Assembly (NCBI GenBank): GCA_026134085.1 | Contig: JAOQIN010000004.1 | Coordinates: 26-64,025, forward strand | Direction: 5' to 3' | Length of the DNA stretch: 64,000 nucleotides | From: Candidatus Methanoxibalbensis ujae | Lineage (GTDB): Archaea; Halobacteriota; Syntropharchaeia; Alkanophagales; Methanospirareceae | Part shown: positions 29,970-57,827 of the stretch, in pieces | Layout of the letters: each line of letters starts with the position of its first letter | How positions within the stretch are numbered: position 1 is the first letter of the stretch | Notes under the pieces: model-generated | The model's input: the letters and a program-made list of their open reading frames with translations, nothing else | The model's database searches: none | Told to the model about the DNA's origin: nothing | Made by a program: the position numbers and the translations under genes

Positions 29970-32936
29970 ATGAGGCTAATCGAGAAGGGCTTTAATCTGG
30001 TCGATGTGAACAAGCTTGCAGTCAAAGAAGCTGGATACAAGGCTGGCAAGGGCTCAGTAATTTTTCCTAAGATTCACAACATCCACACTTGGTTTGCGAG
30101 GAGACCCTGCGGAATTGCAAGAGTTTCGACGATATCAGCGGTTTTACCTGCGGATATAGATGAAAAAGAGTTCGAACAGATTGTCGGTTTGGATAAGGCG
30201 AAGAGAAGTGCTAAGGTAATTTACATGGCTGAGCCAAACTTAAAAATGCTTAAGAAATACGTAAATAAGAAATATGTAAATCCTTCAGAAATTACGGTCT
30301 TGGACCCGATGGCTGGTGGAGGCTCAATTCCTCTGGAATCCGCAAGGCTTGGATTTAGGACTATAGCCATGGATTACAATCCCGTCGCATACCTGATTCT
30401 GAAGGCAACTGTTGAATATCCAGCTAAGTTCGGCGAAGAACTCTTTAATTTGGCTTTGAAGGAAGCTAAGAAATTTATTAAGTTTGCAAGGGAGAAATTG
30501 GGTGAATTTTACACAGATGCCGAGAATTACATCTTTGCAAGAGGTATCAGATGTCCGAAGTGCAACGGCTTAATCCCAGTTGCTGGAGTCTTTCCAGAAA
30601 TAACCACTAAAACTTCATACAAGAAAAGATTTTTGAAGGTTGGATTTGATAAAGACAGTAAGAACTTTGGAGTTGAAACCACTAACGAGAAGCAGACTTG
30701 GTCTCTAAAGAAGTTCAGAAAAGGTCAAAACATATTCGCTCAATGTCCTTACTGCGAGCATGTTTTTAAGTTAAGAGGTCAAGGAGAAGACCATGCCTTT
30801 GCAAAGTGGTTTAAGGAGCATGCGAAGTTGATGAAAGCCGTTGTTGAAGACTTACAGCCCGTTGATGAAGAATTAGTGAAGAAATTACTCGAACTGCACA
30901 TTCCTCTCGTTAAGCAGGTTGGAAACGAGTTTGTTGCCGTAAAGGACGATGAAGAAGAGATTGAGAAGTTCGTTAAAGCCTTTAGAGAGCTTTCAAACAG
31001 AATATTCGAACTTCAGAGCTACATTCCAATGGATGAAATACCAGAGGAGAACGAATGGGCTTCTACCTTCAGAAATCTCGTTGGTGATGAAGTCACGCCA
31101 AAGTGGTATATGCTCTTCAATCCGAGACAGCTTTTGGTTTTAGCTGAATTGATTAGATACGTTGCAGAGAGAGTTAGAGAGCTTTACGAAGAAAAAGGAG
31201 AGTTTGGAATTGCTTCTATGCTTTACATTGCTTTTGCTTTGGATAAACTTGGGAATTTCAACACCATAGCTAATAAATGGCAAGGAACTCAGTTTAAAAC
31301 TGGAATGAGTGACACACTCCGAGGAGAACCAACTTTAAGCTTTAGAGCAGAATACTGTGAAGCAAAGAGAATTGAACAGGCATTGGAATGGACATTAGAG
31401 CCAGAACTTGCAGAAAACAGAAAGTTTACGAAAACTGCTGGCGGTATTCTCCCAGTTCTAAGATTCCTAACAGACCAGTTCAAAGAGAACAAGAACGAAA
31501 ATGTCAAAGTCATTTTGGGCGATGCAACTAAACTAAGCGAGATAATGGACGAAAAAGTCGATGTTATCAACGTCGATCCACCCTACTACGACCAAATCAC
31601 TTACTACAGTGATAAGAGCGAAATCTTTTGGATTATCTTAAGGAGAGCCTTATCACCAGCCCTATCAATACTGTTCAAAGATTCCAAACTCGATTGGGAT
31701 TACAACAGTCCGAAAGTTCCGAGAGAAAAGGAGATGGTTGCAAGAAAGAACGACGGAAGAAGATTCGAACAGCTGTTCAAACAGTTCGTAAAAGAATCAC
31801 ACAAAATTCTAAAAGACGATGGTTACCTAATAATCTGGTTCACTCATCCGAGGGCAGAAGCGTGGTATGCTGTTGGTGAATCTCTATACGATACTGGATT
31901 CATAGTTCCAAAGGTCTATCCAGTCTATACGGAAATGAGAACAAGATATCTAAAACAGGTTTTCGAGGCGGTTCAACAGGTAACCCTCGCAATCGTAGCC
32001 AAGAAAGGGGAGAGAAAACACATCGCAGTCCCAAGTGGAAACGTAAAAGCCTCATTACTCATGAATGAAGAGTTCATAAGTTCAATTCGTTCTGCCGTAG
32101 AAACTGCGAGAAAAACAATAGCAAATCTCGACATAACGACTGCTGACGCCTCGGCAATCGTCTTCAGCACCGCAATGGGTGTGATAACAAACTACTCCTT
32201 ACCGTTCAAAGCAAAATTCAAAGACCTATACGAGCCAGCGATAACCCTGTCTGTGAAAGAGTTTTTCACTCCTCTACTCGAAAAGGTCTTCAAGAAGGGT
32301 TACATAGCATTGGATGAAGAGAAAGCGAAGGTCCTACTTGAAAAGGTTGAGAAGAGACTTCTACTCGACCCTTCATCCCGTTCCTTCTTATCCCTATGGA
32401 CGATTTCACATGTCAGGATGGACGGGAGCCTCTACGAAGAACCTCTTAATCTGAGCTACGACTTTGCTCAGATGGTTTCAAAGCTCTGCGGATTCGACAT
32501 AAACGACCTCAAAAAGTTCGGATTAATTAGAAAGGTCAACAGCACTTACAAGCTAACACACCTTTCAGACTACGTAAACGGTAGAGTAAAGGCGGACATT
32601 AAAACGTTCCTGAAAACATCTGTAGGAAGAGCGATTTATTTGACATACCTCTCCGCATCAACTGGCGGAACCCCTGCTGTTAGAGCGAGAGAGATCGCCG
32701 AAAACGAACACGTAAGCAACTGCGCAGATGAGATAGAGTTTGATTCCTCATTAGCCTTAGTGTTACTATCAACCGCTCCAGACTCTGAATTCGAGGACGT
32801 ATCAAAGATAGACGTCAGGCAGATGAGAAAGATTATATCTGAAACTTTAACCCACTTTATATTAGGGGATGTCAAGATAGAGGTTAGAAGTGTTAAGAGC
32901 GGGATTAAAACGCTCGAAGGGTTCGGTGTCTTATGA
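29970..32936 (+). CDS. DUF1156/COG1743-type Zn-ribbon N6-adenine DNA methyltransferase (island 1)
   Basis: HNIHTWFARRP (DUF1156 hallmark), SAM motif VLDPMAGGGSIPLE, Zn ribbon CPKC...CPYC, catalytic NVDPPYYD. Clear paralog of the methylase at 58810. Start moved to ATG 29970 (MRLIEKG) after GGTGGAG. Confidence 0.85.
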   Translation: MRLIEKGFNLVDVNKLAVKEAGYKAGKGSVIFPKIHNIHTWFARRPCGIARVSTISAVLPADIDEKEFEQIVGLDKAKRSAKVIYMAEPNLKMLKKYVNKKYVNPSEITVLDPMAGGGSIPLESARLGFRTIAMDYNPVAYLILKATVEYPAKFGEELFNLALKEAKKFIKFAREKLGEFYTDAENYIFARGIRCPKCNGLIPVAGVFPEITTKTSYKKRFLKVGFDKDSKNFGVETTNEKQTWSLKKFRKGQNIFAQCPYCEHVFKLRGQGEDHAFAKWFKEHAKLMKAVVEDLQPVDEELVKKLLELHIPLVKQVGNEFVAVKDDEEEIEKFVKAFRELSNRIFELQSYIPMDEIPEENEWASTFRNLVGDEVTPKWYMLFNPRQLLVLAELIRYVAERVRELYEEKGEFGIASMLYIAFALDKLGNFNTIANKWQGTQFKTGMSDTLRGEPTLSFRAEYCEAKRIEQALEWTLEPELAENRKFTKTAGGILPVLRFLTDQFKENKNENVKVILGDATKLSEIMDEKVDVINVDPPYYDQITYYSDKSEIFWIILRRALSPALSILFKDSKLDWDYNSPKVPREKEMVARKNDGRRFEQLFKQFVKESHKILKDDGYLIIWFTHPRAEAWYAVGESLYDTGFIVPKVYPVYTEMRTRYLKQVFEAVQQVTLAIVAKKGERKHIAVPSGNVKASLLMNEEFISSIRSAVETARKTIANLDITTADASAIVFSTAMGVITNYSLPFKAKFKDLYEPAITLSVKEFFTPLLEKVFKKGYIALDEEKAKVLLEKVEKRLLLDPSSRSFLSLWTISHVRMDGSLYEEPLNLSYDFAQMVSKLCGFDINDLKKFGLIRKVNSTYKLTHLSDYVNGRVKADIKTFLKTSVGRAIYLTYLSASTGGTPAVRAREIAENEHVSNCADEIEFDSSLALVLLSTAPDSEFEDVSKIDVRQMRKIISETLTHFILGDVKIEVRSVKSGIKTLEGFGVL

Positions 32937-35900
32937 TTCCGATTGGAGATGTTTACAGGTTCAAAGCTGAAGTCGAAGAAGAGCTCACACCGAGCTTTCA
33001 TTCGGCAATCATGAGCAGTTTGGGGAAACCCTATCCCACAAGCTTCGGAGATGCAGACCACGTTTTCAGCATAACATGCTTCACCGAACCTCTTAAGATA
33101 TTTATCGAAGATGTGATCAAATCTTTAAATTTCGGAACAACGCCTTTCCCGCTCGTGAGGGGTTTTGGATTCGGAAAGACCCACTCTCTAATTGTTCTAT
33201 GGCATATATTTACAAATGCTATAACAGACGATCACCTGAGAAGATTGTTATCCGAAAATGAAATCTTAAAGCGGACCTTCGTCTTAGCATGTGATGTCAG
33301 CGAGAGAGCACCCCCACTAGAAACGTTTGCTGAAACTCTCTTCGCATCCAAAAGCATGAAGAAGGATTACGACTTACTAAGAGTTTTATCAGATTTAGAA
33401 GAAAAATATGATAAAAACGAACTTCTGAGCCCGACGAGATTTGCAGATTTCTTAACTGAATTTGTGAAGGAGTCTAAGAGGAAATTTCAAAAAACTCCTA
33501 AGTTCCTGGTTCTAATAGATGAACTCGGATACGGAACTATAAAGAGGATAGACGAATACGCCGACTCAAAATTTACCAAGGAGGAGTTGATAGAGGATAT
33601 TAGGAGATTGATAAGTTTCGTTACTACTATTGCTGAAGAGTTGAAAAGATTAGGTTCCTCAGTTGCAATAGTTTATGCATTTGCCGAACAAGACCTGAAC
33701 TCTCTTGATGCGAGAATAAAGATGCACTATTCAAATGAAAATGCGAGAGCAAAGCTTGAGGGATTGAAAGAGCTGATTAGAACAGATTTAATAGAAAGAC
33801 TTAAGAGGTATTCTGGTGGAATAGAAAGAGCACCGTTGCAGTTAAATCCCCTGCAAAACATAGAAATTGCGAAGTTTAGAGTTTTAAAAGCCATAGGAGA
33901 TGAGAGCAAAGCAAGAGATTCGACATCCTCTTATATCCAGAACCTTTTGGAAAACTTCAGAATTTTTGATGAAACCGACATCCACAACTATGTGGAGGCT
34001 GTTCGGCAGTTTTACCCTATTTCACCAGACTTGCTTAACCTCCTTAAAAAGGCTCATGATTCGACAGAATTTCCAAAAACAGAATACGTTAGAACTGTAA
34101 TATCTCTGTTAAAAGATGCTGTGAGGAATGCTTTACAGAACGAGCCTGATGCTCCTTTAATTGGCGTTGGATTTCTCAGCTTACAGCAATCTGCATTAAG
34201 CGACATACTTGACGATTATGCTCAAAGCGATTGGTTTACAATACTCAAAGATATTGAACTTACCATAAACTCCTCCAGGAATCAAAAGCTTGCAGAACTA
34301 ATTTCAAAGCTAATTCTATCGAAAGCTACTACCTCCAACATCCTTGCCCTGATAGAAGAAAGAGAGATAGAAAAATATGGCATGTCTCAAGAAGAAATTC
34401 AGGCATCCATAGTATCAACATTCAATAAAGATGAAGTTAGCTCAGCTTTAGAAGAATTTCCAGAAGTCTTGATGGATTTGAGGGTCAGAAGTGCAAGGAT
34501 AGTTGAAAGGATTGTAGAGGGTAAGAGATTGTTCATTCCTTCAGTAGTGAGGCACGTAATTGCACAAAAGGAATCTTACGTGATTGAGGAGAAGAAGAGA
34601 GCTCATGATAGTGGTATTCTCACATATATTCGGGAGTCAAGCGTGCAACCTCTTCTTAACAAACTTTCCAAGTCCGCAAATATACTAACAAAAGACCACA
34701 AAGAATTGAAAGAGCTAAGTAACGTTCACCTTAGTGAGCCAACGTGTTTCATCATTCCACCTTGGGATTTCGCCTTGTATAGAGAAATTGAGCAGAAAGG
34801 TCACGATAATGTGGTCAATGAAGCAGTAAATATTCTCAACAACAAATTTGAGAGAGGCGAAATCGTCAGAGCTCCTTATCTTATCGTTCTAATTCCGAAT
34901 CTTTCAAAAGTGAGCGATTTAGTAAACTCTCTAATAGAATACAATGCATCCATAAAATTCCTCGATTACTTGAAAAAGGAAGAATCCATCGTAAAGAACT
35001 ACATTGAGAAGGTGAAAACTGAGATTCTAACCAAAAGAACGAGCGAAAAAGTTGATGAAAGGAAATTGAGTAAACATATAGTTCAGAGTGTTCAGCAGCA
35101 GATCAGGGAAGCTAAAAATACCGCAATGGCTGAGGTTGTCAGATGTGCAAGAGATGTAATTGCAAACTTGCTTCGTTTATATGAAAAACCCATAGTATAT
35201 AATTTGACTCATAAAAATTTCGTATTTTCAACGAGATTCTTGGAAAGAAGGGAGGAGACTATAAAGAGAATTGTGCCTGAGATAAAGACAAAGGATGTTG
35301 ATAAATACTCAGATATGATCAAAAAGTTAGTTGAAGACATTTTAAACCTTGTAGGTTTTGAAGAGAAACATACCGTCGTGAAAGAAGCTTTATTCAACCG
35401 CATAAAGAAGGAGCTTGAAGAGTATGAAATGGAAAGTATAAGCATTGATGAATTACTCGAAAATTTAATTCTCGGAACGTACGGAATCCTACCTAAGACA
35501 GAAGAAATTGCGAGAAAATCTATTGGGGGTCTTAATGGAAAAATCATAGATTATTCAGACAAGATTGTGAAGATAATAGTCAATAAAAAGAGCTTGTTAT
35601 TTAAATATGAAAAGAAAGAACCTAAAATGAAGATAGAGTCGATTCAGGTTTCTCCAAAGAAGCTCACCTACAATCCGAAAGAGAACGTCAGGTTAAATAT
35701 CAGCATTGTGAATGAGGGGGCAAGAGGAGACTGCATTTTGAAGATTGAAAGTTGTGACGATGGGAATGTCATAGTTCAAAGAGAACTCAAAGAAATTGAA
35801 ACTAAGGAAGAAAGAGTCTTACCATTGGAGTTAGTTTTGCCTGAAGTCGGAGGAGAGCATCGCTATAGGGTTTCAGTAATGCATAATCCCATAGAAGTTG

Positions 35901-36265
35901 ATGATGAGAGAGAGCATATGTTCACAGTGGAACCCGAACCATATCCACTGCCTCCAGAGTTCGTGAAAGAGATAACCGCTGATATAACGGAAACTGATAA
36001 GGAAAGCATAATCGACTTTGTTTCGTCGAATCAGAATGCTTTTGAGGAATGCGGGATTTACATGGAGTCGGACGATTTTGACATATCTATAGATGTTAAA
36101 AGCCCGAAGCGAGGCAACTTAGATGTTTTAATGAGGTTCGTTCAACCGCTCGCCAGAAGATGCAATACTGTGCCAAAGATTCATCTTAAGACCAAACACG
36201 GCATTTTGAAGAAAGATGATGTAAAATTTGAAGCGGATATCAAGCTCTATGATCAGAAAAGTTGA
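32933..36265 (+). CDS. Divergent DUF499/BrxC-like P-loop ATPase with a C-terminal beta-sandwich (CARDB-like) region (island 1)
   Basis: 1110 aa. GFGFGKTHSLIVLWH and KFLVLIDELGY align with PFGGGKTHTLIALYH and PVLILMDEILEY of the DUF499 protein at 61497. ATGA overlap with the methylase gene. Confidence 0.7.
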   Translation: MIPIGDVYRFKAEVEEELTPSFHSAIMSSLGKPYPTSFGDADHVFSITCFTEPLKIFIEDVIKSLNFGTTPFPLVRGFGFGKTHSLIVLWHIFTNAITDDHLRRLLSENEILKRTFVLACDVSERAPPLETFAETLFASKSMKKDYDLLRVLSDLEEKYDKNELLSPTRFADFLTEFVKESKRKFQKTPKFLVLIDELGYGTIKRIDEYADSKFTKEELIEDIRRLISFVTTIAEELKRLGSSVAIVYAFAEQDLNSLDARIKMHYSNENARAKLEGLKELIRTDLIERLKRYSGGIERAPLQLNPLQNIEIAKFRVLKAIGDESKARDSTSSYIQNLLENFRIFDETDIHNYVEAVRQFYPISPDLLNLLKKAHDSTEFPKTEYVRTVISLLKDAVRNALQNEPDAPLIGVGFLSLQQSALSDILDDYAQSDWFTILKDIELTINSSRNQKLAELISKLILSKATTSNILALIEEREIEKYGMSQEEIQASIVSTFNKDEVSSALEEFPEVLMDLRVRSARIVERIVEGKRLFIPSVVRHVIAQKESYVIEEKKRAHDSGILTYIRESSVQPLLNKLSKSANILTKDHKELKELSNVHLSEPTCFIIPPWDFALYREIEQKGHDNVVNEAVNILNNKFERGEIVRAPYLIVLIPNLSKVSDLVNSLIEYNASIKFLDYLKKEESIVKNYIEKVKTEILTKRTSEKVDERKLSKHIVQSVQQQIREAKNTAMAEVVRCARDVIANLLRLYEKPIVYNLTHKNFVFSTRFLERREETIKRIVPEIKTKDVDKYSDMIKKLVEDILNLVGFEEKHTVVKEALFNRIKKELEEYEMESISIDELLENLILGTYGILPKTEEIARKSIGGLNGKIIDYSDKIVKIIVNKKSLLFKYEKKEPKMKIESIQVSPKKLTYNPKENVRLNISIVNEGARGDCILKIESCDDGNVIVQRELKEIETKEERVLPLELVLPEVGGEHRYRVSVMHNPIEVDDEREHMFTVEPEPYPLPPEFVKEITADITETDKESIIDFVSSNQNAFEECGIYMESDDFDISIDVKSPKRGNLDVLMRFVQPLARRCNTVPKIHLKTKHGILKKDDVKFEADIKLYDQKS

Positions 36266-37004
36266 AAGACTTGTGGAAATTGTAACTGAGCTTGAGATGG
36301 ATTTGAGGAGCTTGCATGCCATATACTTAATCACATTCCTCAGAACGGGGTGCGAGAATGATAATTTACGTGGAATTGCAGAATCTTTCCTCTCATACAA
36401 AGATAGAATGATCGTATTTGATCCCTTTTTCGAAGGAGTTAGAATTGCTTCAGAAATACTTGATCAATTAGAGTTGAGTGTTGAACGCTCAGATATCAGA
36501 AATGTCATAAATGAGCTGAAAAAGAGGGTAAAAAATGTGGGCGTGACCTTTGTCATAGATTGCTTCTCTCCGATTGAGTTGTTAACATATCTCACAAAAC
36601 TCAGATCTGATGGCTTTCAGTCAAAACTACTTGAGATATATTTCACGAACATAGGTGGAGTTACCAGATACCTCACAGCTCAAGCCAGTGGCACAATAAG
36701 AGGTTTTTCGGAATATCTTGCAGAGTTTTTAAATGCAAAAGTTCACGATGAATGCTCCTATTTCGATAGACTCGTTCACACATCTATTTTGATCGATGAC
36801 TTCCTACGTAGCATTCCCCACGGGAGCATATATTCAAGAATTGTAAAATACCTCAATTCTTACAAGTCCATTTTGATAACTTCAGACCATGGCTACGATG
36901 TCGTGAGTTCTGATGGTTTGCTCTACGTTACTCATCCCTCCCCTCCTGAGGGTAGTATACTTAAATTCAGCAACATTGCGATGTACTTAGTCGGTTGGAG
37001 GTGA
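36249..37004 (+). CDS. Small PglZ/alkaline-phosphatase-superfamily-like protein (island 1)
   Basis: Motif order VTFVIDCFSP ... NIGGVTRYLTAQASG ... FDRLVH ... ILITSDHGYD mirrors the metal-ligand Asp, Ser/Thr nucleophile and DHG motifs of PglZ-type phosphatases. Overlaps the upstream gene by 17 nt. An alternative start is at 36228. Confidence 0.45.
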   Translation: MIRKVERLVEIVTELEMDLRSLHAIYLITFLRTGCENDNLRGIAESFLSYKDRMIVFDPFFEGVRIASEILDQLELSVERSDIRNVINELKKRVKNVGVTFVIDCFSPIELLTYLTKLRSDGFQSKLLEIYFTNIGGVTRYLTAQASGTIRGFSEYLAEFLNAKVHDECSYFDRLVHTSILIDDFLRSIPHGSIYSRIVKYLNSYKSILITSDHGYDVVSSDGLLYVTHPSPPEGSILKFSNIAMYLVGWR

Positions 37005-37456
37005 ACAAATTGTTCGATTACAACATGATATATAAAGAGAAGAAGAAACCAGAACTGAAGATAACGGTCGGAAAGGGAGAAGAGTTGGTAATCAAAGTTT
37101 CTGGAAAGACTGCAAGACACGTTTTCGAGAAAATAACAGATAATTCAAAGGTATGGGATTACTTGGAACCTGCAAACATAACATCCAAAGAAAAGAAGTA
37201 TAGTATGAGAGCAGATGTAGCACCGATCATAATAAGCTATGTCCTCTTAAACAGGAGGAGCCCAAAACCTGAGAAGTGGGATTGGTATCTGGATGAAGTT
37301 CTTGATGGGAGATTATCGATTGCTGGAAAAAGTATAAGCAGTTTGGTTGAGATGTTCTTCACACTCTCAAACACATTTGGCTACAAGGAATCATCAGATG
37401 TCCTCACAAGTATGTTCAAAACATTTGCCGACAAGGTGAGGAAGTATCTGCACTAA
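36995..37456 (+). CDS. Hypothetical protein, last gene of island-1 cassette
   Basis: 153-aa ORF overlapping the stop of the previous gene. Possible starts: TTG 36995, GTG 37001, TTG 37010, ATG 37025. No motif recognised. Confidence 0.5.
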   Translation: MEVNKLFDYNMIYKEKKKPELKITVGKGEELVIKVSGKTARHVFEKITDNSKVWDYLEPANITSKEKKYSMRADVAPIIISYVLLNRRSPKPEKWDWYLDEVLDGRLSIAGKSISSLVEMFFTLSNTFGYKESSDVLTSMFKTFADKVRKYLH

Positions 37457-38281: not shown

Positions 38282-38920
38282 GTGAGGAGAAAAGTGATCG
38301 GCGGCGTTAAAACGCTGCGCAGGGAATTTCGTATTGCTGAACTCGTGAATTACGGCACCGAACAGAAGCCGTCATACACTGTAAGTGTTGAGATTTGGAT
38401 TCATGTTGGCGAGAGTCCTGACAGCATGCATCGCATATTCGTGGAAACGGGGCTTATATCCAGAGACACCGTCCCGTTCGAAGTTGTGAACTTCAGGGGA
38501 AGTGTGTCAGGGGATGAGCCTTTTTACGCCGCGGAGATATTATATGAGGGGGCACTTATTGAATACAGCGTCCATCCACGCCATGCAGGCGGTATAAGAG
38601 AATTGCGGTATGAGCCAGTTGTGACTCCTGAGGACATGAGGCTGATACATCCGGCTGAATTTCACAGGCATGGTATTGAGGTGCTCTCGTGGGAACTCCA
38701 TAACTACCGCCCGCATCTCATGCTGTTCATCTCATCAAAAAAATATGAGCACTTTGACTTGTCTGTCAGGCGAGAGGAGGAGAGCACCTCAATAAACATG
38801 AAAATCGGAGAATCAGATCTGCGCAGGAAGACAGCACCATGCAGGTGGCTCCTTCAGCGCATCTCTGTGTTTGACATAGATGTTGAGGAAGAACTGATGA
38901 AATTGCTGTGCGATGAATAG
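38282..38920 (+). CDS. Hypothetical protein
   Basis: 212-aa ORF (GTG start) with host-like composition. No motif recognised. Confidence 0.45.
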   Translation: MRRKVIGGVKTLRREFRIAELVNYGTEQKPSYTVSVEIWIHVGESPDSMHRIFVETGLISRDTVPFEVVNFRGSVSGDEPFYAAEILYEGALIEYSVHPRHAGGIRELRYEPVVTPEDMRLIHPAEFHRHGIEVLSWELHNYRPHLMLFISSKKYEHFDLSVRREEESTSINMKIGESDLRRKTAPCRWLLQRISVFDIDVEEELMKLLCDE

Positions 38921-48552: not shown

Positions 48553-49164
48553 TATGAGATGCACCCGGCAAGATGCTTGTCGGGGAAGGACCGATGACTG
48601 TTTGTCAGATGAGGTCGTCACAGGCACTTCGTGGTCCCGGCATCTATTGGGAGAGTGGCTGGGCTGCTCCGCTGGCGGCTATGCCACCTGGTGGATGGCT
48701 CGGCTCAGGGCGCCGAAGAAGGGCGTGCCAAGCTGCGAAAAGCCTCGGGTAGGCGCAGGGAGCCTTTGAACCGAGGATTCCCGAATGGGAATTCCCGCCA
48801 TCAGGCGCTCCCGTAAGCTTCGGCTGAGGGAGAGGGAACGCCCCGAATTGAAACATCTTAGTAGGGGCAGGAAGAGAAATCAAATGAGATGCCGTGAGTA
48901 ACGGCGAGTGAAAACGGCAGAGCTCAAACTGAACCCTCCTCCGAAAGGAGTGAGGGGATGTGGAGTTGGAGGCTCCCTCCGTCAGCACCCGAGGGGTGAA
49001 GCTGAAGTCCGCTGGAATGCGGCGCCGGAGAGGGTGAGAGCCCCGTAGGCATAAGCCCTGAGGGTGTGGAGGGATGACCTGAGTACCGCGGGTTGGATTT
49101 CTCGCGGGAATCTGGGGGCTACCAACCTCCAAAGCTAAATACGTCCTGAGACCGATAGCGCACT

Positions 49165-49197
<33 letters not shown>

Positions 49198-50664
49198 TGA
49201 GGGAGGTGAAAAGAGCCTGAAACCAGGTGGTGATGGTGTGATGCGGCATGGAAGCGATGATGACGCCGAAGGAAAGCCGTAAGGCGAGTACGAGGTGTCC
49301 GGAGCAGTGTCGCATCGTACGTTTTGAAAAACGGGCCAGGGAGTGTGTCCCGATGGCGAGGCTAACCTGAATGGGGAAGCCGCAGGGAAACCGAAATGCC
49401 CGCACCCGAGAGGGGAGGGGCGGCGTACGAACTGCGCGGAGTCATCGGGGCACGACCCGAAGCCGGGTGATCTAGGCGGAGGCAGGGTGAAGCCTCCCGA
49501 AAGGGAGGTGGAGGCCCGCACCGATGCTGACTTGCAAATCGCTCGGATGACCTCCGTCTAGGGGTGAAAGGCCAATCAAACCCGGCGATAGCTGGTTCCC
49601 CCCGAAACATGCCACAGCATGACCCGGTCTGAGGTGGACGGCGCTGTAGAGTTACTGATAGGAGGTCACCGGGAGGAAACTCCTGGCCCTTCTGTCAAAC
49701 TCCGAAGGTGCCGTCGCCTTAGATGACCGGAAGTCGGGGCGTCGGGGTAAGCTCGGCGTCCGAAAGGGGAACAACCCAGACCGGGGTTAAGGCCCCTAAG
49801 TGTTGGCTAAGTGTCGAAATCCGAAGGGAGTCCCGAGCCGGAGACAGCTGGGAGGTGAGCTTAGAAGCAGCTATCCTCTAAGGAGTGCGTAACAGCTCAC
49901 CAGCCGAGGCTCGGGGCACCGAAAATGGACGGGGCTAAAGCCAACCGCCGATACCCCGGGACACCGAAAGGTGATTCCGTAGGGGGGCGCCCTGCGAGGG
50001 CGGAAGCATCTCCGTGAGGAGGTGTGGACCTTGCAGGGACGAGAATCCTGGCGATAGTAGCAGCATAGCCGGGTGAGAATCCCGGTCGCCGAAGGGGCCA
50101 GGTTTCCTCGGCAATGTTCGTCAGCCGAGGGTTAGCCGGTCCTAAGGGCGTCCTCAACCAGAGACGCCCGAAGGGGAAGCAGGTCAATATTCCTGCGCCG
50201 TCCAGCCTGAAAGGGTGAAAGCCCGCCTGACGCTTCCGGGTATGCCGAGCGGCGCCGTCGCGCCGTCCAAGCCCAGAAGTCCCCGGAGAGCCGTAATGGC
50301 GAGAAGGGGATGAATGGGTGATGGCGAAAGTCGGTAGATCCCGGGAGACCGTGAAAAGGGTGGCTGGACGACCGTACCGAGAACCGACACAGGTGCCCCT
50401 GGGTGAGCAGCCCAAGGCGTGTCGGGGCACTCCGGCTGAGGGAAATCGGCAAACTCGCCCCGTAACCTCGGGAGAAGGGGTGCCTGCTCTTGCGCAAAGA
50501 GCAGGTCGCAGTGACAAGGGGAGGCCGACTGTTTAATAAAAACATAGGTGGCTGCAAGCCCGAAAGGGTGAGTACAGCTGCCGACTCCTGCCCAGTGCCG
50601 GTCCCTGAAAGCCCCGTTCAAGGGGACGAAGGGCCGGTAAACGGCGGGGGTAACTCTGACCCTC

Positions 50665-51396
50665 AAGGAGGGGGTCGTTAAATCCGGCTGTATGCTGGGA
50701 AGTTTGAGCGCTCGGCTCCTGAGTAAGGGAAAATGCCGGGTGCGATGAGAACAATCAGCAGGAAACCGAGGAGGTGCGTGCTGCTTGCTCTACGAGTTCA
50801 GGGATTTGATTGACCCGAGAATGCTTCCAGGGCGGAGGAAGGAACTCATGTATTACCTCGTGGGCTTCACAGACGCAGAGGGTTGCTTCAGTGTTTCGCT
50901 GAAAAAACAGGAAGGCACGAGGTTTGGATGGGTTCTTGACCCGGTGTTCCATGTGACGCAGCACAAAAGCAATCGCATCGTGCTTGAAATCTTCCGCCGA
51001 ACACTCATGTGCGGCAGAATCATTGAGAAGCATGGACAGCCAGACACGCTGGTTTACATCGTTGACAACCGCAGACAGCTCGCAGAGAAAGTGATTCCGT
51101 TTTTCCGAAGGCACAGACTTATCCTGAAGCACAGGGATTTTGAGCGTTTCGCAGAGATCGTGGAGGCATTAGAGGAGAAGAAGCATGCGACGGCTGAAGG
51201 CTTCAGGGAACTCGTGCAGAAAGCGTTTGAGATGAACATGGCGGGTAAGCAGCGGAGACACACGCTTGAGGAAATCCTTAGTGATATTGCCTCTGTGGCC
51301 TCCTCGGGATCCTCAGAGGCCATACGCCGGACGCCCCGAGAAGGCGTGAGTAACGCCGAGAAGGGGCGAAGATATGGTCCACCCGGGAAGGGTGCT
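50665..51396 (+). mobile_element. Archaeal rRNA intron carrying a homing-endonuclease ORF
   Basis: The conserved exon sequence GACCCTC (ends 50664) resumes as TTAAGGTAGCG at ~51396/51397. The intervening 732 nt has no rRNA similarity and contains a LAGLIDADG ORF. Boundaries are accurate to within a few nt. Confidence 0.8.
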
Positions 51397-51399
51397 TAA
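50785..51399 (+). CDS. Single-motif LAGLIDADG homing endonuclease (intron-encoded)
   Basis: YLVGFTDAEGCFSV is a LAGLIDADG motif. Only one motif is present, so a homodimeric type is inferred. The stop codon overlaps the predicted 3' splice junction. The start may be the internal MLPGRRKEL. Confidence 0.8.
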   Translation: MLYEFRDLIDPRMLPGRRKELMYYLVGFTDAEGCFSVSLKKQEGTRFGWVLDPVFHVTQHKSNRIVLEIFRRTLMCGRIIEKHGQPDTLVYIVDNRRQLAEKVIPFFRRHRLILKHRDFERFAEIVEALEEKKHATAEGFRELVQKAFEMNMAGKQRRHTLEEILSDIASVASSGSSEAIRRTPREGVSNAEKGRRYGPPGKGA

Positions 51400-52396
51400 G
51401 GTAGCGTAATACCTAGCCGCTTAATTGGCGGCTTGCACGAAAGGAGGAACGAGCCTCCCGCTGTCCCCAGCCGGAACCCGGCGAAATCCACATCCTGGGG
51501 AACGGTCCAGGGACCCCCGAGGGGAAGCGAAGACCCCGTGGAGCTTTACTGCAGCCTGCCGCTGGACCATGGCTTCGGATGTAGAGCGTAGGTGGGAGGC
51601 AGTGAGACGCTCTCGCCAGGGGGCGTGGAGCCGCCAATGGAACACCACCCTTCCGAGGTTGTGGTCCTTACCCGAAAGGGGACAACGGCAGGTGGGCAGT
51701 TTGGGTGGGGCGCCACGCCCTCGAAAAAATATCGAGGGCGCCCAAAGGTCGGCTCAGCCGGGTCAGAACTCCGGCGTAGAGTGCAAGGGCAAAAGCCGGC
51801 CTGACGTGACCCCGCATACCAAAGGGTCACGAGCCGAAAGGCGGGCCTAGCGAACCTTTGAGGGTCATTGGTAGGCCCCAAAGACGTCAGAAAAGCTACC
51901 CCGGGGATAACTGAGTTGTCTCCGGCGAGAGTCCACATCGACCCGGAGGCTTGCTACTTCGATGTCGGCTCTTTCCATCCTGGGCGTGCAGCAGCGCCCA
52001 AGGGTAAGACTGTTCGTCTGTTAAAGGAGATCGTGAGCTGGGTTTAGAACGTCGCGAGACAGTTCGGTTGCTATCTATCGGGGGTGTTGGAGGTCTGAGG
52101 GGAAGCTCCCCCTAGTACGAGAGGAACGGGGGAGCGGCGCCTCTGGTGTACCGGTTGTCCGACAGGGCAACGCCGGGCAGCTACGCGCCACTGGATAAGA
52201 GCTGAAAGCATCTAAGCTCGAAGCCACCCCCGAAAAGAGACCTCCAGGGCACCGCTAGAACAGCGGTTTGATAGAGCCGGGGTGTAAGTGCCGAGGCGAA
52301 AGCCGAGGCATTCAGCCCGCGGCTACTAACGCCCGTAGCCAGCTCTTAAAGCCCTGCCACTCCTCCAGATGAAGCCGGAACCGCGAAGTGCCTCAT

Positions 52397-52468
52397 GCCA
52401 AGGTGGCGGAGAGGCTACGCGGCTGACTGCAGATCAGCTATACCCCGGTTCAAATCCGGGCCTTGGCT
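52397..52468 (+). tRNA. tRNA-Cys (anticodon GCA) distal to the 23S rRNA
   Basis: Acceptor GCCAAGG/CCTTGGC, anticodon stem GCTGA/TCAGC with loop CTGCAGA, T arm CCCGG-TTCAAAT-CCGGG. Confidence 0.9.
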
Positions 52469-53920: not shown

Positions 53921-56900
53921 ATGGAGGCGGGAGATATTATTGAAGGGCCGTTCTGGAATGAACCTGTCAGGATTGAAAGAATTGAGAATGTGGAGAATTA
54001 TATACGAATTGTAGGTTTTACAACCCGCTCAAATCAACCTGTTGATGTATTCCTGAAAAGAGAAGAGATAAACAGATTGAAAATTATTGAAGATATAATC
54101 GACCTTTCTTCTGATCCTGAAAATACATTTTTTGCTATTGAAGCAACCCGGTTCAGATATGCATCTCTTTTTGACCCACTTCTTGCGATGAATGTCTCCA
54201 GAATAGATCCACTTCCATTTCAGATAGAAGCTGTATATGGATATGTTCTGAAACAACCACACATAAGATTTTTAATTGCGGATGACCCTGGTGCAGGAAA
54301 GACAATAATGGCGGGACTTATACTGAAAGAGCTTAAATTAAGAAGACTTGTAAAAAGAATATTGATTGTGGTTCCAGGACACCTGAAAGACCAGTGGAGA
54401 AGAGAATTAAAGGAAAAATTTGATGAGAAATTTGTGGTGATTGACAGAAATACTTTCAACGCCCATTATGGAGAAAGCCCCTGGGACGATCAGGTGATAA
54501 CATCCATTGATTTTGCAAAGCAGGATGAGATTCTTTCAACTCTCAGATCTGCTCATTGGGATCTGGTGATAGTTGATGAAGCACACAAAATGTCCGCATA
54601 CAGATACGGTGATAAAATCTCAAAAACCAGGCGATATAAACTCGGGGAAGTTCTGTCCAAAACATCAGACCACCTTTTATTCCTGACAGCGACCCCGCAC
54701 AAAGGAGACCCCGAAAACTTCAGACTCTTTCTGGATCTTCTGATGCCGGGATTTTTTGCATCTCCTGAAATGGTGGAGGAATCTCTCAAGAACAAAGACA
54801 ATCCTTTATTCATAAGAAGGCTGAAAGAAGACCTCAAAGACTTTGAAGGAAAACCCATCTTCACGAGAAGATTCCCAAAAACGATAAAATTTCATCTATC
54901 TGAGCCTGAGAAGGAATTATATAATGAAGTTTCACGTTATGTAATTGAACAATACAACAGAGCATTGCAATCTGACAAAAAAAGAAATGTTGCGTTTGCT
55001 CTTATGATCCTTCAGAGAAGGATGGCATCAAGCACATACGCTCTTTTAAAGTCGTTGGAGAGGCGAAAAAATAGATTGGAGAATATATTAAATGGTGGGA
55101 GGGTGCAAAGAGAGACAACTGTTGACTTTGAAGAATTGGAGGACCTTGAAGAACATGAAAGATGGAAAAAGGAAGAAGAATGGGAGGCACTCACCTCAGC
55201 AAAAGACCCGGAAGAGTTGAGAGATGAAATAAAAACTCTCAAAAAGCTCATTGAAAAAGCAAAGGAGGTGATAAAAGGTGAGAATGAAGTGAAGCTGAGA
55301 GAGCTCAAAAAGGCGATAGAGGATGGTTTTAAAATCAAGAAGATAGAAGGCAGATCAAAAATATTGATATTCACAGAATCAAAGGACACACTTGAACACC
55401 TTGTGGAAAAAATAAGAGCATGGGGCTATAAAGTAAATTACATCCATGGAGGGATGGGAACAGATGAAAGGATAAAAGCAGAAAAGGTGTTCAGGGATGA
55501 TACGGAAATCATGGTCGCAACAGAGGCTGCGGGAGAGGGAATAAACCTCCAGTTCTGCCATATCATGATAAATTATGACATCCCCTGGAATCCCAATCGC
55601 CTGGAGCAGAGGATGGGAAGAATTCACAGATATGGACAGCAGATGGATGTTTATATATTCAATCTTGTGGCAGAGGATACAAGAGAAGGGAAAGTTCTGG
55701 CAAAACTTTTTGATAAACTTGAAGAGATAAGAGACAAGCTCGGGAGTGATAGGGTTTTTGATGTCATCGGTGATGTGTTTGAAGGTAAAAACCTTTATCA
55801 GTTAATTCTTGATGCCGTAACAAATGCAAAGAGCATGGATGAGATTTTGAAAGAGTTGGATGTCAAGCCTGACGGGAAATACATATCAAAAATAAGAGAG
55901 GCACTGGGCGAAAGTCTGGCAACGAGATTCATTGACTACACCAGAATAAAAGAGATGGCTGAAAGGGCAGAAGAACACAGGCTTGTTCCAGAGTATGTGG
56001 AGGAGTTCTTCAAAAGAGCTTTCAAAAAAGCTGGGGGAAAATTCAAAATTAAGGGAGGTTTCATAGCCATAGATTCTGTTCCTTATGAAATAAGGAAGAT
56101 TGCGGAAAGTGTTGAATTCAAAAACAGATATGGTGTTGTGATGAGAAGGTATCCCAAAACAACATTTGACAGGGAGGTTGCATTCAAGAACCCCGGGGCG
56201 GAGTTCATATCGTTCGGGCATCCCTTGCTTGAAGCTCTTTTGCAGTGGGTCGTTGAAAAATTTGGAGAAGAAGCAAAAAGAGGTGCTGTCTTCAAAGACC
56301 CTTCCGGAAGGTTAAATGGTTATATATGGTTTTACATAGGGGAGGTAAGAGATGGAAAGGGTGAAGTTGCCGGCAGGAAAATCCTCGCGATTTATGATGA
56401 CGGAGAAAACAAAAGAGAAACAAACCCCGCAATTCTGTGGGATCTCTCTCCTGTATATAATTCCGATAATTCCGATGATTTGCCCGATAAAAACAGATTA
56501 CTGCCTTTTGTGATAGATGCGGTTGGAAGATATAAAGAAGGAATAGCAGAAGAAAGAAGAAGGCAGGCGGAAATAAAAAGAAAGTATGGGCTAAAGTCTC
56601 TTGATTATCTCATAGGGAAGCTTGATGAGGAGCTTGCTGAGTTGTATGAGAGGCAAGCAATAGGCGAAAATGTGGATTTGCCCATCAGAAATAAAGAGGA
56701 GCAGAAGAAAAGATACGAAGAGGCGAGAAAAACTCTCAGAAATGAAATAGAGCTGGAGCAGAGTTTGAGCATATCCATGCCAGAGTTTTTGACCGTTGTC
56801 AGGGTAATTCCTGAGAGGAGTGAAATTGTTGAAGTTGAGGATGAGGAGATTGAGAGAAAGGGAATGGAATTGGCGATGGAATATGAGAGAAAGCAGGGAA

Positions 56901-57220: not shown

Positions 57221-57346
57221 GGAATGGAGAGATGGATAATACAACAGAGAGGATTTCAAATCAATTGTGAGGAATTACATCGCAGAAAAAAGAGAGCAGC
57301 CAGAATACGCGATGTGAGTTATCCTACTTATTTCTGAAAGAAGGTA

Positions 57347-57380
57347 TTGAGATATGAGCGCTGTTGAGATATGAGCGCTG
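57347..57380. repeat. Perfect 17-nt tandem duplication (ttgagatatgagcgctg x2)
   Basis: Counted base by base. Lies inside the insertion. Confidence 0.95.
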
Positions 57381-57793
57381 AAACAGTTAAAACTTAATCA
57401 GGTTGAGATTGTTTCACTTGCGGATTATGCTGTGAAGAACACTGTGCCGCTCCAACCCGTCAACATCAAACACAAACATATTCAAACATATAAATAACGC
57501 CGTTTCCTCCCATGACATTGTGAGAGTGTGAATTTTATACCGCCTCCGATCCAGGAAAACCTGAAATTACAGGGAATTATGAGAGGATGAAGGAAAAATA
57601 AAAGAATTGAGAAAGTCTTAAATGGTCCGACTCAAATATTGGCTCACGAGCAGGAGAAAGTCATGTCTCAGAAAGTGACTGGGACATTTTCATTGCTTTG
57701 ATTGTTTTGAAGTCGCAGCTCTGGAAAAATGAGAATACAGCATGAGATGGACACTGCATAAAAAATTCCGCAAATCTTCCACTGATGTGTTTT

Positions 57794-57827
57794 GAATATG
57801 TAAGAATATGGAATATGTAAGAATATG
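57794..57827. repeat. Perfect 17-nt tandem duplication (gaatatgtaagaatatg x2)
   Basis: Counted base by base. Lies inside the insertion. Confidence 0.95.

What the first reader, a model, noticed from the sequence alone, without database searches (positions are those of the whole stretch)
29970..37456. Compact four-gene cassette: DUF1156 methylase + DUF499-like ATPase + mini PglZ-like protein + unknown; BREX-like logic in an undescribed composition
Four co-directional genes are translationally coupled, with an ATGA overlap at 32933-32936, a 17-nt overlap at 36249-36265, and an overlap at 36995-37004. (1) A Zn-ribbon adenine methylase of the DUF1156/COG1743 type (HTWFARRP, LDPMAGGGSIPLE, CPKC..CPYC, NVDPPYYD). 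(2) A 1110-aa P-loop protein whose N-terminal ~250 aa align with the canonical DUF499 ATPase at 61497 (GDADHVFSITCFTEPL vs QDADLFFRKTYLTKGL; GFGFGKTHSLIVLWH vs PFGGGKTHTLIALYH; LVLIDELGY vs LILMDEILEY). (3) A ~250-aa protein with alkaline-phosphatase/PglZ motif order. (4) A 153-aa unknown. A methylase, a DUF499-class ATPase (the class of BrxC/PglY) and a PglZ-family protein form the conserved core of BREX. Here the methylase is not PglX-like, the PglZ-like protein is about a third of normal size, and no BrxA/B/L, helicase or nuclease is present. DUF1156+DUF499 neighbourhoods have, to my knowledge, only been flagged by comparative genomics of defence islands and usually include an SNF2 helicase. 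I do not know of a described or tested system with this gene set.
Basis: partly seen in the sequence, partly recalled or inferred. Interest (0 to 1): 0.9.

Follow-up and report, generated by a model that had tools for sequence, protein, structure and literature searches.

The report
Compact archaeal BREX-like defence cassette
A four-gene cassette in a methane-oxidising archaeon encodes a DNA methylase, a BREX-type ATPase, a very small PglZ-like enzyme and an unknown partner protein; it looks like a stripped-down relative of the BREX antiviral system that is not in current defence catalogues.

Summary
Four tightly packed co-directional genes lie at 29970-37456 in a low-GC island of a Ca. Methanoxibalbensis ujae (ANME-1) contig.

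- **g1** is a DUF1156/HmaB-type Zn-ribbon m6A methylase.
- **g2** is a very divergent DUF499/BrxC-class AAA+ ATPase with a hypervariable C-terminus.
- **g3** belongs to a rare, unannotated archaeal family: about 40 clusters at 50% identity among 1.84 billion proteins. A confident model (pLDDT 95.5) matches PorX PglZ domains best. The family's invariant residues follow the PglZ order D..T..D..DHG..H.
- **g4** always follows g3 and resembles nothing known.

The g1-g4 set recurs in about 30 archaeal loci, once in permuted order, and all four genes are under purifying selection. Most sister loci add a genuine short BrxL between g2 and g3, and often a DUF6884-like gene upstream. One lineage has an adjacent SF2 helicase instead. 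None has a Snf2 helicase.

The closest published system is the "Type-3 BREX-related" system (NAR 2026). This family lacks that system's defining helicase, and its PglZ-like and partner proteins have not been shown to be the same families as that system's.

My verdict is a new variant of a known kind (BREX family). Function is inferred and untested.

The parts
29970..32936 (+). g1: DUF1156/HmaB-type N6-adenine DNA methyltransferase (about 988 aa). It has an N-terminal DUF1156-like segment (HTWFARRP), motif I (LDPMAGGGS), a target-recognition insert with a 4-Cys Zn ribbon (CPKC...CPYC), motif IV (DPPY) and a roughly 350-aa C-terminal region. The start is ambiguous (GTG 29919, ATG 29949 or ATG 29970).
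   Evidence: PADLOC: MTase_II 2.7e-41, HmaB 2.1e-29, DUF1156_MTase 3.8e-17. NCBIfam DUF1156_antiphage 5.3e-28, but 97.6 bits against a cut-off of 1000. Pfam DUF1156 scores only 14.9 bits, below its 24-bit cut-off. BLASTP to the window's HmaB: 26% identity over 737 aa, E 4e-50. hhalign probability 100% to HmaB and 31% to PglX.
32933..36265 (+). g2: divergent DUF499/BrxC-class AAA+ ATPase (1110 aa). Walker A is GFGFGKTH (K82 invariant) and Walker B is LVLIDE (D196, E197 invariant). The last ~210 residues are hypervariable and include a CARDB-like beta-sandwich. Annotated in NCBI as hypothetical protein MCW7077888.1.
   Evidence: PADLOC HmaC 6.8e-10, N-terminus only. BLASTP to the window's HmaC E 1e-9. 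hhalign of a 10-sequence family profile: 97.5% (E 5e-12) to HmaC and 89.9% (E 1.7e-6) to BrxC. No Pfam DUF499 hit in any of 10 members. Invariant residues. Mean pairwise identity is 9-15% over residues 901-1110 against 27-45% elsewhere. One member hits CARDB at 0.005.
36249..37004 (+). g3: mini PglZ-like protein (251 aa). It has an N-terminal helical bundle (about residues 1-95) and a minimal alkaline-phosphatase-superfamily core of about 155 aa. Family-invariant residues are D104, S107, E110, N134, T139, D173, H177, D213-H214-G215-Y216 and H229. Annotated in NCBI as hypothetical protein MCW7077889.1.
   Evidence: No Pfam, PADLOC or NCBIfam hit. AlphaFold2 model from a 35-sequence alignment: pLDDT 95.5, pTM 0.93. 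Foldseek against PDB: ranks 1-10 are all PorX (PglZ domain), best E 1.3e-4 at probability 1.00; most of the remaining top 50 are alkaline phosphatases, MCR-1 and iPGM. Invariant residues; canonical PglZ shows the same order. Sub-threshold PglZ, Sulfatase, Metalloenzyme and Phosphodiest hits in family members. hhalign to BREX PglZ: probability 37%, E 3.6e-4.
36997..37004 (+). Shine-Dalgarno-like GGAGGTGA inside the end of g3, 5 nt upstream of the probable g4 start (TTG 37010).
   Evidence: Read directly from the sequence. Gene calls for g4 homologues start at MFDY.
37010..37456 (+). g4: 148-aa protein of unknown fold (153 aa if it starts at TTG 36995). It follows g3 in every locus where the sequence downstream of g3 is present. 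Invariant residues are Y69, R72, D74, R87, K94, W95 and G105. I propose it is a partner or scaffold of the mini-PglZ; this is inference.
   Evidence: 13-sequence family alignment drawn from diverged loci. g4 is present after g3 in every genome and metagenome locus long enough to show it. No Pfam or PDB sequence hits. hhalign to BrxA and BrxB gives probability below 1%. dN/dS 0.17.

Best explanation
The cassette is the compact, motor-less form of an archaeal BREX-family restriction/modification-like immune module.

Shown:
- g1 is a DUF1156/PglXI-class adenine methylase.
- g2 is a DUF499/BrxC-class AAA+ ATPase with a fast-evolving C-terminal module.
- g3 is a miniaturised PglZ-like metalloenzyme that keeps the full set of PglZ-type metal-ligand and nucleophile residues.
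- g4 is an obligate neighbour of g3.
- The four genes form a conserved, selected unit in thermophilic archaea. Most relatives add a short BrxL.

Inferred, by analogy with BREX:
- g1 methylates a host-specific motif and so marks self DNA.
- g2 assembles on DNA as scaffold and sensor. Its variable C-terminus reads invader features.
- The g3-g4 pair is recruited to unmethylated foreign DNA. There g3 acts as a metal-dependent phosphodiesterase or nickase and blocks viral or plasmid replication.
- g4 plays the role BrxB plays for PglZ, as a binding partner or scaffold.

In sister lineages a BrxL ring ATPase, or in one lineage an SF2 helicase, supplies a DNA motor. The window's clade works without one.
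For: **Component identities:** for g1 and g2; for the g3 fold; for the active-site order (D104, T139, D173, D213-H214-G215, H229 in g3 against D439, T474, D552, D594-H595-G596, H677 in canonical PglZ).

**Conserved linkage:**
- The g1-g4 order recurs where g3 identity is as low as 22-30%.
- Gene order is permuted to g2-g3-g4-g1 in L010/L011.
- There are 8 GTDB archaeal species and 32 metagenome loci.

**BREX tie:** a true BrxL (Pfam BrxL_ATPase 3.5e-112, BrxL_N 1.7e-25; 35-39% identical to annotated BrxL) sits between g2 and g3 in 6 of 8 genome loci and in 20 of the 28 metagenome loci where the junction is visible.

**Selection:** dN/dS against L031 is 0.11, 0.09, 0.19 and 0.17 for g1 to g4.

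**Defence-island context:** GmrSD/DUF262, SocA_Panacea, AAA_15/21 and PIN neighbours. The cassette is a low-GC island. A second methylase-ATPase defence system lies in the same window.

[quoted passage not shown] DUF499 ATPases have hypervariable C-terminal sensor modules (PMC12839542), which matches.
Against: - There is no experimental or methylome evidence; every functional step is inferred.
- g3 misses every PglZ HMM threshold. It is about half the size of a PglZ domain. It shows no obvious stretch for the cap sub-domain that PMC12839542 describes as characteristic.
- Foldseek TM-scores to PorX are low (0.35-0.41 normalised to the query). I could not inspect the 3-D clustering of the invariant residues.
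- g4 shows no similarity to BrxB.
- The window's form has no motor or helicase. In type-1 BREX, restriction generally needs all components.
- The g3 comparison with the near-identical L029 gives dN/dS of about 1, although on only 12 amino-acid changes.
Confidence: 0.6

Rival explanations
1. The cassette is a restriction-disabled remnant. Its lineage lost BrxL, and the cassette now only methylates DNA, as an orphan epigenetic or anti-restriction module. g2-g4 are kept because methylation needs them.
For: Most relatives carry BrxL. In type-1 BREX, methylation needs only a subset of the proteins while restriction generally needs all of them (abstract of PMC13326643). A clearly decayed relative exists: L004/L005 keep only a g2 fragment plus g3 and g4.
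Against: g3 and g4 are under purifying selection inside the BrxL-less clade (dN/dS 0.17-0.19). BrxL-less loci occur in several deep branches of a g2 neighbour-joining tree (window, L006, L001, L010, L012, L023). g2 overlaps g3 directly, which leaves no room for a BrxL remnant. Per PMC12839542, 24% of type-1 BREX loci lack BrxL, and BREX PglZ nuclease activity is not needed for methylation (PMC12205998), so keeping all catalytic residues of g3 argues for an effector role.
Confidence: 0.15
2. The cassette depends on the neighbouring Hma (Type-1 BREX-related) system and borrows its Snf2 helicase-nuclease HmaA in trans. Functionally it would then be a split Type-3-BR-like system.
For: A complete HmaA-HmaB-HmaC system lies at 53921-64000 in the same window. 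g1 and g2 are distant paralogues of HmaB and HmaC.
Against: No HmaA-like protein was found at E<=1 in 55 related loci covering 562 kb. Sequence identity between the paralogous pairs is only 21-26%, which makes shared interfaces unlikely. Hma sits beside a tRNA and the rRNA operon as a separate island.
Confidence: 0.08
3. g3 is not a DNA-targeting effector. It is a PorX-like oligonucleotide phosphodiesterase that makes or removes a nucleotide signal, so the module is a signalling or regulatory circuit and not a restriction-like one.
For: The closest structures are PorX, whose PglZ domain cleaves cyclic and linear oligonucleotides (PMC12205998 introduction and discussion). g3 lacks every DNA-binding accessory domain found in BREX PglZ.
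Against: BREX PglZ cleaves both oligonucleotides and dsDNA (PMC12205998), so the two activities are not exclusive. No cyclase or nucleotide-sensor gene is conserved in the loci.
Confidence: 0.1
4. The genes are a chance juxtaposition: an orphan methylase followed by unrelated genes.
For: None beyond the lack of annotation for g2-g4.
Against: The same four families co-occur in every sufficiently long locus. The only exceptions are the decayed L004/L005 and L007/L008, which are cut inside g2. This holds down to 22% g3 identity and includes one permuted order.
Confidence: 0.02

Closest known systems
Type-3 DUF499-centred BREX-Related (BR) system (Rakesh & Krishnan, NAR 2026, PMC12839542)
   Same: Both have a DUF1156-type N6-adenine methylase with a Zn-finger target-recognition insert, a DUF499-class AAA+ ATPase, a standalone PglZ with no fused accessory domains, and one small extra protein. 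Both are well represented in archaea.
   Different: Type-3 BR is defined by a tripartite core that includes a Swi2/Snf2 helicase. No Snf2 helicase is linked in any of 55 loci here. The published standalone PglZ keeps the cap-like sub-domain; g3 has only a ~155-aa core and passes no PglZ HMM threshold. The small partner in Type-3 BR is an inactive STAND NTPase (BrxB-like), whereas g4 shows no similarity to BrxB. Most members of this family carry BrxL, which that paper restricts to BREX types 1 and 4.
BREX type 1 / type 4 (Goldfarb 2015 classification, as summarised in PMC12839542 and PMC12205998)
   Same: The core logic is methylase + BrxC-class ATPase + PglZ. Sister loci also have BrxL, in the short form without a Lon domain described for type 4. 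A PglZ gene paired with a small neighbour mirrors the PglZ:BrxB sub-complex.
   Different: The methylase is DUF1156/PglXI-like, not PglX. The ATPase is nearer to DUF499 than to BrxC. PglZ is 251 aa against about 810-860 aa. There is no BrxA or BrxB. The window's cassette has no BrxL.
Hma (PADLOC; HmaA tested in Halomonas, PMC11232893), also called the Type-1 BR system. A copy is present at 53921-64000 of this window.
   Same: g1 and g2 are distant homologues of HmaB and HmaC.
   Different: The Hma effector is the Snf2 helicase with a PD-(D/E)xK nuclease (HmaA), which is absent from this cassette. Hma has no PglZ-like or g4-like gene.
PorX PglZ domain (type IX secretion response regulator; PDB 8THP, 7PV7, 7PVK)
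   Same: It is the best structural match to g3. Both have a Thr nucleophile plus Asp/His metal ligands in the same order.
   Different: PorX is a bacterial signalling protein with a receiver domain. Its PglZ domain is about 305 residues (T213-K518, PMC12205998), against about 155 in g3.

Membership tests
BREX (sensu Goldfarb: PglZ + BrxC/PglY core) | A PglZ-domain protein | tested here: inconclusive
   Sequence models are not met. The window's g3 has no Pfam, PADLOC or NCBIfam PglZ hit, and only sub-threshold hits appear in 3 of 35 family members. hhalign gives probability 37%. The fold and motif order are met: PorX PglZ domains are the top 10 PDB matches (E 1.3e-4, probability 1.00), and the invariant residues follow the same D..T..D..DHG..H order as canonical PglZ.
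BREX (sensu Goldfarb: PglZ + BrxC/PglY core) | A BrxC/PglY-class P-loop ATPase | tested here: met
   hhalign of the g2 family profile gives 89.9% (E 1.7e-6) to a BrxC alignment and 97.5% (E 5e-12) to HmaC/DUF499. Walker A and B residues are invariant. g2 is nearer to DUF499 than to BrxC proper.
BREX type 1 | BrxA, BrxB, a PglX-type methylase and BrxL | tested here: not met
   g1 against PglX gives probability 31%. g4 against BrxA and BrxB gives below 1%. The window has no BrxL, although it is present in sister loci.
Type-3 BR system (PMC12839542) | DUF1156-type N6-methylase | tested here: met
   hhalign probability 100% to HmaB. PADLOC HmaB and DUF1156_MTase hits. NCBIfam DUF1156_antiphage E 5.3e-28, though far below the equivalog cut-off.
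Type-3 BR system (PMC12839542) | DUF499 AAA+ ATPase | tested here: inconclusive
   g2 is homologous by hhalign and BLASTP. No Pfam DUF499 hit appears in any of 10 members. I did not test whether g2 falls inside the published DUF499 clades.
Type-3 BR system (PMC12839542) | Swi2/Snf2 helicase without a nuclease fusion (BrxHII-like) in the locus | tested here: not met
   No HmaA/Snf2-like ORF at E<=1 in 55 loci covering 562 kb. No helicase Pfam family appears on the called genes of L001, L006, L007 or L012. Only L023/L060 has an adjacent helicase, and it is YprA/Lhr-like, not Snf2.
Type-3 BR system (PMC12839542) | Standalone active PglZ with metal ligands, a six-stranded alpha/beta/alpha core and a three-stranded cap insert | tested here: inconclusive
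   g3 is standalone, its ligand order is conserved and it has an alpha/beta core. The core is only about 155 aa, with 15 residues between DHG and the last His against 82 in canonical PglZ. That leaves no obvious room for the cap. I could not inspect coordinates.
Type-3 BR system (PMC12839542) | Inactive STAND NTPase (BrxB/BrxF-like) partner | tested here: inconclusive
   g4 has no sequence or profile similarity to BrxB or to any Pfam or PDB entry.
Hma / Type-1 BR | HmaA Snf2 helicase with a C-terminal PD-(D/E)xK nuclease | tested here: not met
   It is absent from the cassette and from all related loci. The only copy belongs to the separate Hma system at 53921-57220.
Alkaline-phosphatase superfamily | Alpha/beta core with a nucleophile (Ser/Thr) at a helix N-terminus and Asp/His ligands for a two-metal site | tested here: met
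   Below the PorX hits, the Foldseek list is mostly alkaline phosphatases, MCR-1 and iPGM. The best BFVD hit is a type I phosphodiesterase (E 0.014). Sub-threshold Sulfatase, Metalloenzyme, Phosphodiest and PglZ hits occur. T139 sits at the start of helix 139-143, after strand 124-133.

The most novel reading that the evidence does not exclude
The four genes are the minimal self-sufficient core of BREX-class immunity. Under this reading, a methylase, a BrxC/DUF499-like ATPase, a ~155-aa PglZ catalytic core and a previously unknown partner (g4) exclude foreign DNA with no motor protein at all. g4 would define a new PglZ-partner fold unrelated to BrxB. BrxL or helicases would then be add-on modules, gained or swapped in sister lineages.
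Probability: 0.35. Interest if true: 0.8.

Novelty: new variant of a known kind. Interest (0 to 1): 0.66.

Why it matters
How BREX stops phage replication is still unresolved, partly because the canonical system has six large multidomain proteins. This is a naturally minimised relative from thermophilic archaea, with four or five genes, a PglZ reduced to its catalytic core and a small obligate partner. That would make a tractable system for reconstitution and structural work.

The family also shows which parts are core and which are exchangeable. The methylase, ATPase, PglZ and partner are always present. The motor varies between BrxL, an SF2 helicase and nothing.

Two protein families (g3 and g4) and a very divergent ATPase currently escape Pfam, PADLOC and NCBIfam, so such loci are invisible to defence-system annotation in archaea. 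The host, an uncultured ANME-1 methanotroph, has a large virome (bioRxiv 10.1101/2022.07.04.498658) and few characterised defences.

Tried and rejected
- **Shallow g3 model.** The first g3 model, built from a 15-sequence alignment (pLDDT 72.8), gave only noise in Foldseek: DUF89 and FtsY on top, PorX at rank 48. I discarded it in favour of the 35-sequence model.
- **Sequence profiles against PDB.** Profiles of g3, g4 and g2 gave no meaningful hits.
- **hhalign of g3 against BREX PglZ.** The result was only weakly supportive: probability 37%, and the Thr nucleophile was misaligned.
- **g4 against BrxA and BrxB.** No similarity, but the test used only 3-sequence profiles, so it is weak.
- **Flanking repeats.** A search for att-like repeats or inverted repeats around the cassette found only chance-level short matches.
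- **IMG/VR viral contigs.** No relatives of g3, so there is no evidence of viral carriage.
- **L028 (Abditibacteriota plasmid).** Its gene sizes looked similar, but it is a different BREX-like locus with a PglX-type methylase and DUF4007.
- **Supplementary alignments of PMC12839542.** I tried to extract Type-3 BR PglZ and iSTAND sequences, but they are held as images or garbled text. So I could not compare g3 and g4 directly with the published standalone PglZ and iSTAND.
- **A2 as a query for genome scanning.** The locus survey is therefore biased towards relatives that keep the TSDHGY and SYFD motifs.

Full report
**1. What is there**

Four co-directional ORFs occupy 29919/29970-37456 on the + strand.
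- g1 and g2 overlap by ATGA at 32933-32936.
- g2 and g3 overlap by 17 nt at 36249-36265.
- g4 follows g3 either with a 10-nt overlap (TTG 36995) or with a 5-nt gap (TTG 37010). The second is more likely. Gene calls for homologues begin MFDY, and a GGAGGTGA Shine-Dalgarno-like element lies at 36997-37004.

The cassette is a low-GC island: GC 0.37-0.42 against 0.46-0.51 on both sides. It sits between an aldehyde:ferredoxin-oxidoreductase-like gene on the opposite strand and housekeeping genes.

Exact-sequence look-up places the window in a Candidatus Methanoxibalbensis ujae (ANME-1c) MAG contig of 85,848 bp. There g2 and g3 are 'hypothetical protein' MCW7077888.1 and MCW7077889.1.

**2. g1 and g2**

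- PADLOC matches MTase_II (2.7e-41), HmaB (2.1e-29) and DUF1156_MTase (3.8e-17).
- NCBIfam matches 'anti-phage-associated DUF1156' (5.3e-28), far below the equivalog cut-off.
- The Pfam DUF1156 domain is sub-threshold, at 14.9 bits against a cut-off of 24.
- Against the canonical HmaB at 58810-61500 of this window, g1 is 26% identical over 737 residues, E 4e-50.
- hhalign probability is 100% to HmaB and 31% to PglX.

g2 has no Pfam family at all, and neither do nine relatives.
- Its N-terminal 480 residues align to the window's HmaC (BLASTP E 1e-9).
- A 10-sequence family profile gives hhalign 97.5% (E 5e-12) to HmaC and 89.9% (E 1.7e-6) to a BrxC alignment.
- The Walker A Lys and the Walker B Asp-Glu are invariant.
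- The last ~210 residues are hypervariable: 9-15% mean pairwise identity against 27-45% elsewhere. One member hits CARDB weakly. This matches the hypervariable C-terminal sensor modules described for DUF499 ATPases (PMC12839542).

**3. g3, the key claim**

g3 has no hit in Pfam, PADLOC or NCBIfam.
- A word-indexed search of 5.8 billion proteins found 14 clusters, all unannotated.
- An exhaustive profile search of 1.84 billion representatives found only 40. The full-length ones are about 226-312 aa and the few shorter hits are fragments. None was a long PglZ.

A 35-sequence alignment with 22-80% identity to the window protein has twelve invariant residues: D104, S107, E110, N134, T139, D173, H177, D213, H214, G215, Y216 and H229.

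With this alignment AlphaFold2 gave pLDDT 95.5 and pTM 0.93. Foldseek against the PDB gave PorX, the one PglZ domain among the matches, as ranks 1-10. The best hit was 8thp_A at E 1.3e-4 and probability 1.00. Most of the remaining top 50 were TAB5 and E. coli alkaline phosphatases, MCR-1 and iPGM. TM-scores are modest (0.35-0.41) because PorX is twice as long.

I aligned twelve canonical BREX-1 PglZ proteins. Their domain invariants are D439(xLRYE), PSxT474, D552, D594-H595-G596 and H677xG. These fall in the same order as D104, T139, D173(xxxH177), D213-H214-G215 and H229(G) in g3. T139 sits at the N-terminus of a helix after the second core strand, which is the classical nucleophile position. 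PorX T272/H500 and E. fergusonii PglZ T538/H741 are the experimentally important residues (PMC12205998). I infer that T139 and H229 correspond to them.

Weaker converging signals:
- Sub-threshold hits to PglZ, Sulfatase, Metalloenzyme and Phosphodiest in family members.
- Sub-threshold hits to PADLOC PglZ models.
- hhalign to PglZ at probability 37%, E 3.6e-4, aligning the first Asp, D173 and the DHG motif.
- The best BFVD hit is a type I phosphodiesterase.

So g3 is an alkaline-phosphatase-superfamily enzyme closest to PglZ, reduced to a helical N-domain plus a core of about 155 residues. Only 15 residues separate DHG from the last His, against 82 in canonical PglZ. The cap-like insert described for PglZ is therefore probably missing.

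**4. g4**

g4 forms its own family. It has invariant Y69, R72, D74, R87, K94, W95 and G105, and it follows g3 in every locus long enough to show it. It has no Pfam or PDB relatives and no profile similarity to BrxA or BrxB.

**5. Linkage**

The same gene set recurs wherever g3 occurs.
- The g1-g2-g3-g4 order is found in Archaeoglobus (L001/L016), L006, L012/L013, L023 and several metagenome contigs.
- A permuted order, g2-g3-g4-g1, is found in L010/L011.
- A scan of one genome per GTDB species found eight loci, all archaeal: Archaeoglobus, Sulfolobales, Thermoprotei, Ca. Terraquivivens, Bathyarchaeia (two loci), Desulfurococcaceae and Thermoproteaceae.
- No relatives were found in IMG/VR viral contigs.

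dN/dS between the window and L031 is 0.11, 0.09, 0.19 and 0.17 for g1 to g4.

**6. The unexpected part**

In 6 of 8 genome loci, and in 20 of the 28 metagenome loci where the g2-g3 junction is visible, a ~470-aa gene is inserted between g2 and g3 (the collections were not de-duplicated against each other).
- It is a genuine BrxL: BrxL_ATPase 3.5e-112 and BrxL_N 1.7e-25. It is 35-39% identical to annotated BrxL proteins.
- It lacks the Lon-like C-terminus, like the type-4 BREX BrxL described in PMC12839542.

Many loci also have a ~150-aa DUF6884/YaaA-like gene (g0) upstream of g1.

The Thermoproteaceae locus (L023/L060) has no BrxL. Instead it has a YprA/Lhr-like SF2 helicase ending 21 nt before g1.

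No Snf2/HmaA-like helicase occurs in any of 55 loci covering 562 kb.

A crude neighbour-joining tree of g2 puts the BrxL-containing loci together, with one BrxL-less locus (L012) nested among them. The other BrxL-less forms, including the window's clade, sit on other deep branches. The window's cassette is thus the minimal form: no g0, no BrxL and no helicase.

**7. Comparison with what is known**

- DUF1156 + DUF499 + Snf2 loci are already named. They are Hma in PADLOC and 'Type-1/2 BR systems' in PMC12839542. HmaA has been shown to defend against T4 (PMC11232893).
- A textbook copy sits in this very window: HmaA 2.5e-201, HmaB 2.4e-132 and HmaC 5.8e-117.
- The closest published relative of the cassette is the 'Type-3 BR system': DUF499 ATPase, DUF1156 methylase, nuclease-less Snf2 helicase, standalone PglZ and an inactive STAND protein (PMC12839542, section 33).
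- The present family shares that logic but fails the defining helicase criterion. Its PglZ-like and ATPase proteins are too divergent for current models. Its fourth protein is not recognisably BrxB-like. It usually carries BrxL, which that census restricts to BREX types 1 and 4.
- I could not compare directly with the published Type-3 BR PglZ and iSTAND sequences. So some overlap with that census cannot be excluded.

**8. Mechanism**

Shown: the component identities, the conserved linkage, purifying selection, and a defence-island context (GmrSD/DUF262, SocA_Panacea, AAA_15/21 and PIN neighbours).

Inferred from BREX biology:
- g1 marks self DNA by m6A.
- g2 scaffolds and senses.
- g3, with g4, acts as a metal-dependent phosphodiesterase or nickase on unmethylated invader DNA. 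This parallels BREX PglZ, which is a nuclease that forms a stable sub-complex with BrxB (PMC12205998).

Main rivals:
- A methylation-only remnant after loss of BrxL.
- Dependence on the neighbouring Hma helicase.
- A PorX-like nucleotide-signal role for g3.

**9. Verdict**

The BrxL-bearing sister loci make it stronger. The cassette is best filed as a new, archaeal, miniaturised variant of the BREX / BREX-related family, not a categorically new kind of system. It has two uncatalogued protein families and no experimental support yet.

Noticed in passing
window 53921-64000: A complete canonical Hma / Type-1 BREX-related system: HmaA Snf2 helicase with a NOV_C nuclease domain at 53921-57220, HmaB at 58810-61500, and HmaC from 61497 to the window end. 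It lies directly downstream of the rRNA operon and tRNA-Cys (52397-52468). HmaA and HmaB are separated by a 1.6-kb stretch (57221-58809) with no ORF longer than 63 aa. This could be a decayed inserted gene or a non-coding element. PMC11232893 reports that the hma operon is an insertion hotspot.
   Followed up: partly
window 48666-52348 (ORF 50785-51399): The archaeal 23S rRNA match spans 3683 nt for a 2987-nt model. It contains a 204-aa ORF with a LAGLIDADG_1 homing-endonuclease domain (E 1e-16). This is probably an rRNA intron carrying a homing endonuclease.
   Followed up: partly
L017-L022, L041-L058 (e.g. L017:8574-9986): Most relatives of the cassette carry a short BrxL (about 470 aa, no Lon domain) between the ATPase and the mini-PglZ. 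The window's clade lacks it.
   Followed up: yes
L021:1571-2044, L001:3232-3621, L009:1923-2381 and others: A ~150-aa DUF6884/YaaA-like gene (g0) accompanies the system in many loci. It lies upstream of the methylase, and in L009 downstream of g4. It is absent from the window. Its function is unknown.
   Followed up: partly
L023:2-3148 (same as L060): In the Thermoproteaceae locus a YprA/Lhr-like SF2 helicase (E 1.2e-22 to PDB 6ZNP) ends 21 nt before the methylase gene, and the locus has no BrxL. This suggests that the motor module is interchangeable.
   Followed up: partly
L004:8895-11265 and L005: A decayed copy. Only the C-terminal 369 aa of the ATPase remain, followed by intact g3 and g4, next to a cation-transporting ATPase gene. 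The methylase is gone.
   Followed up: no
window 36249-37004 vs L029:4816-5592: Between the window and a 95%-identical relative, g3 shows dN/dS of about 1.1 and g4 about 0.74, while g2 shows 0.14. The number of substitutions is small. This may reflect recent relaxed or diversifying selection on the effector pair, or it may be noise.
   Followed up: no
window 38282-38920: A 212-aa ORF downstream of the cassette has no family hits. It has three NCBI accessions from Ca. M. ujae MAGs, whereas g2 and g3 have one each. The cassette may therefore be variably present among MAGs of the species.
   Followed up: no
L024 (Thermus oshimai plasmid pTHEOS01, 78854-80389): A gene annotated as BrxL sits in a non-BREX neighbourhood with a RecQ-family helicase, a 3'-5' exonuclease, a tubulin-like protein and vWA proteins. 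No PglZ, BrxC or PglX is annotated within 14 kb on either side.
   Followed up: no
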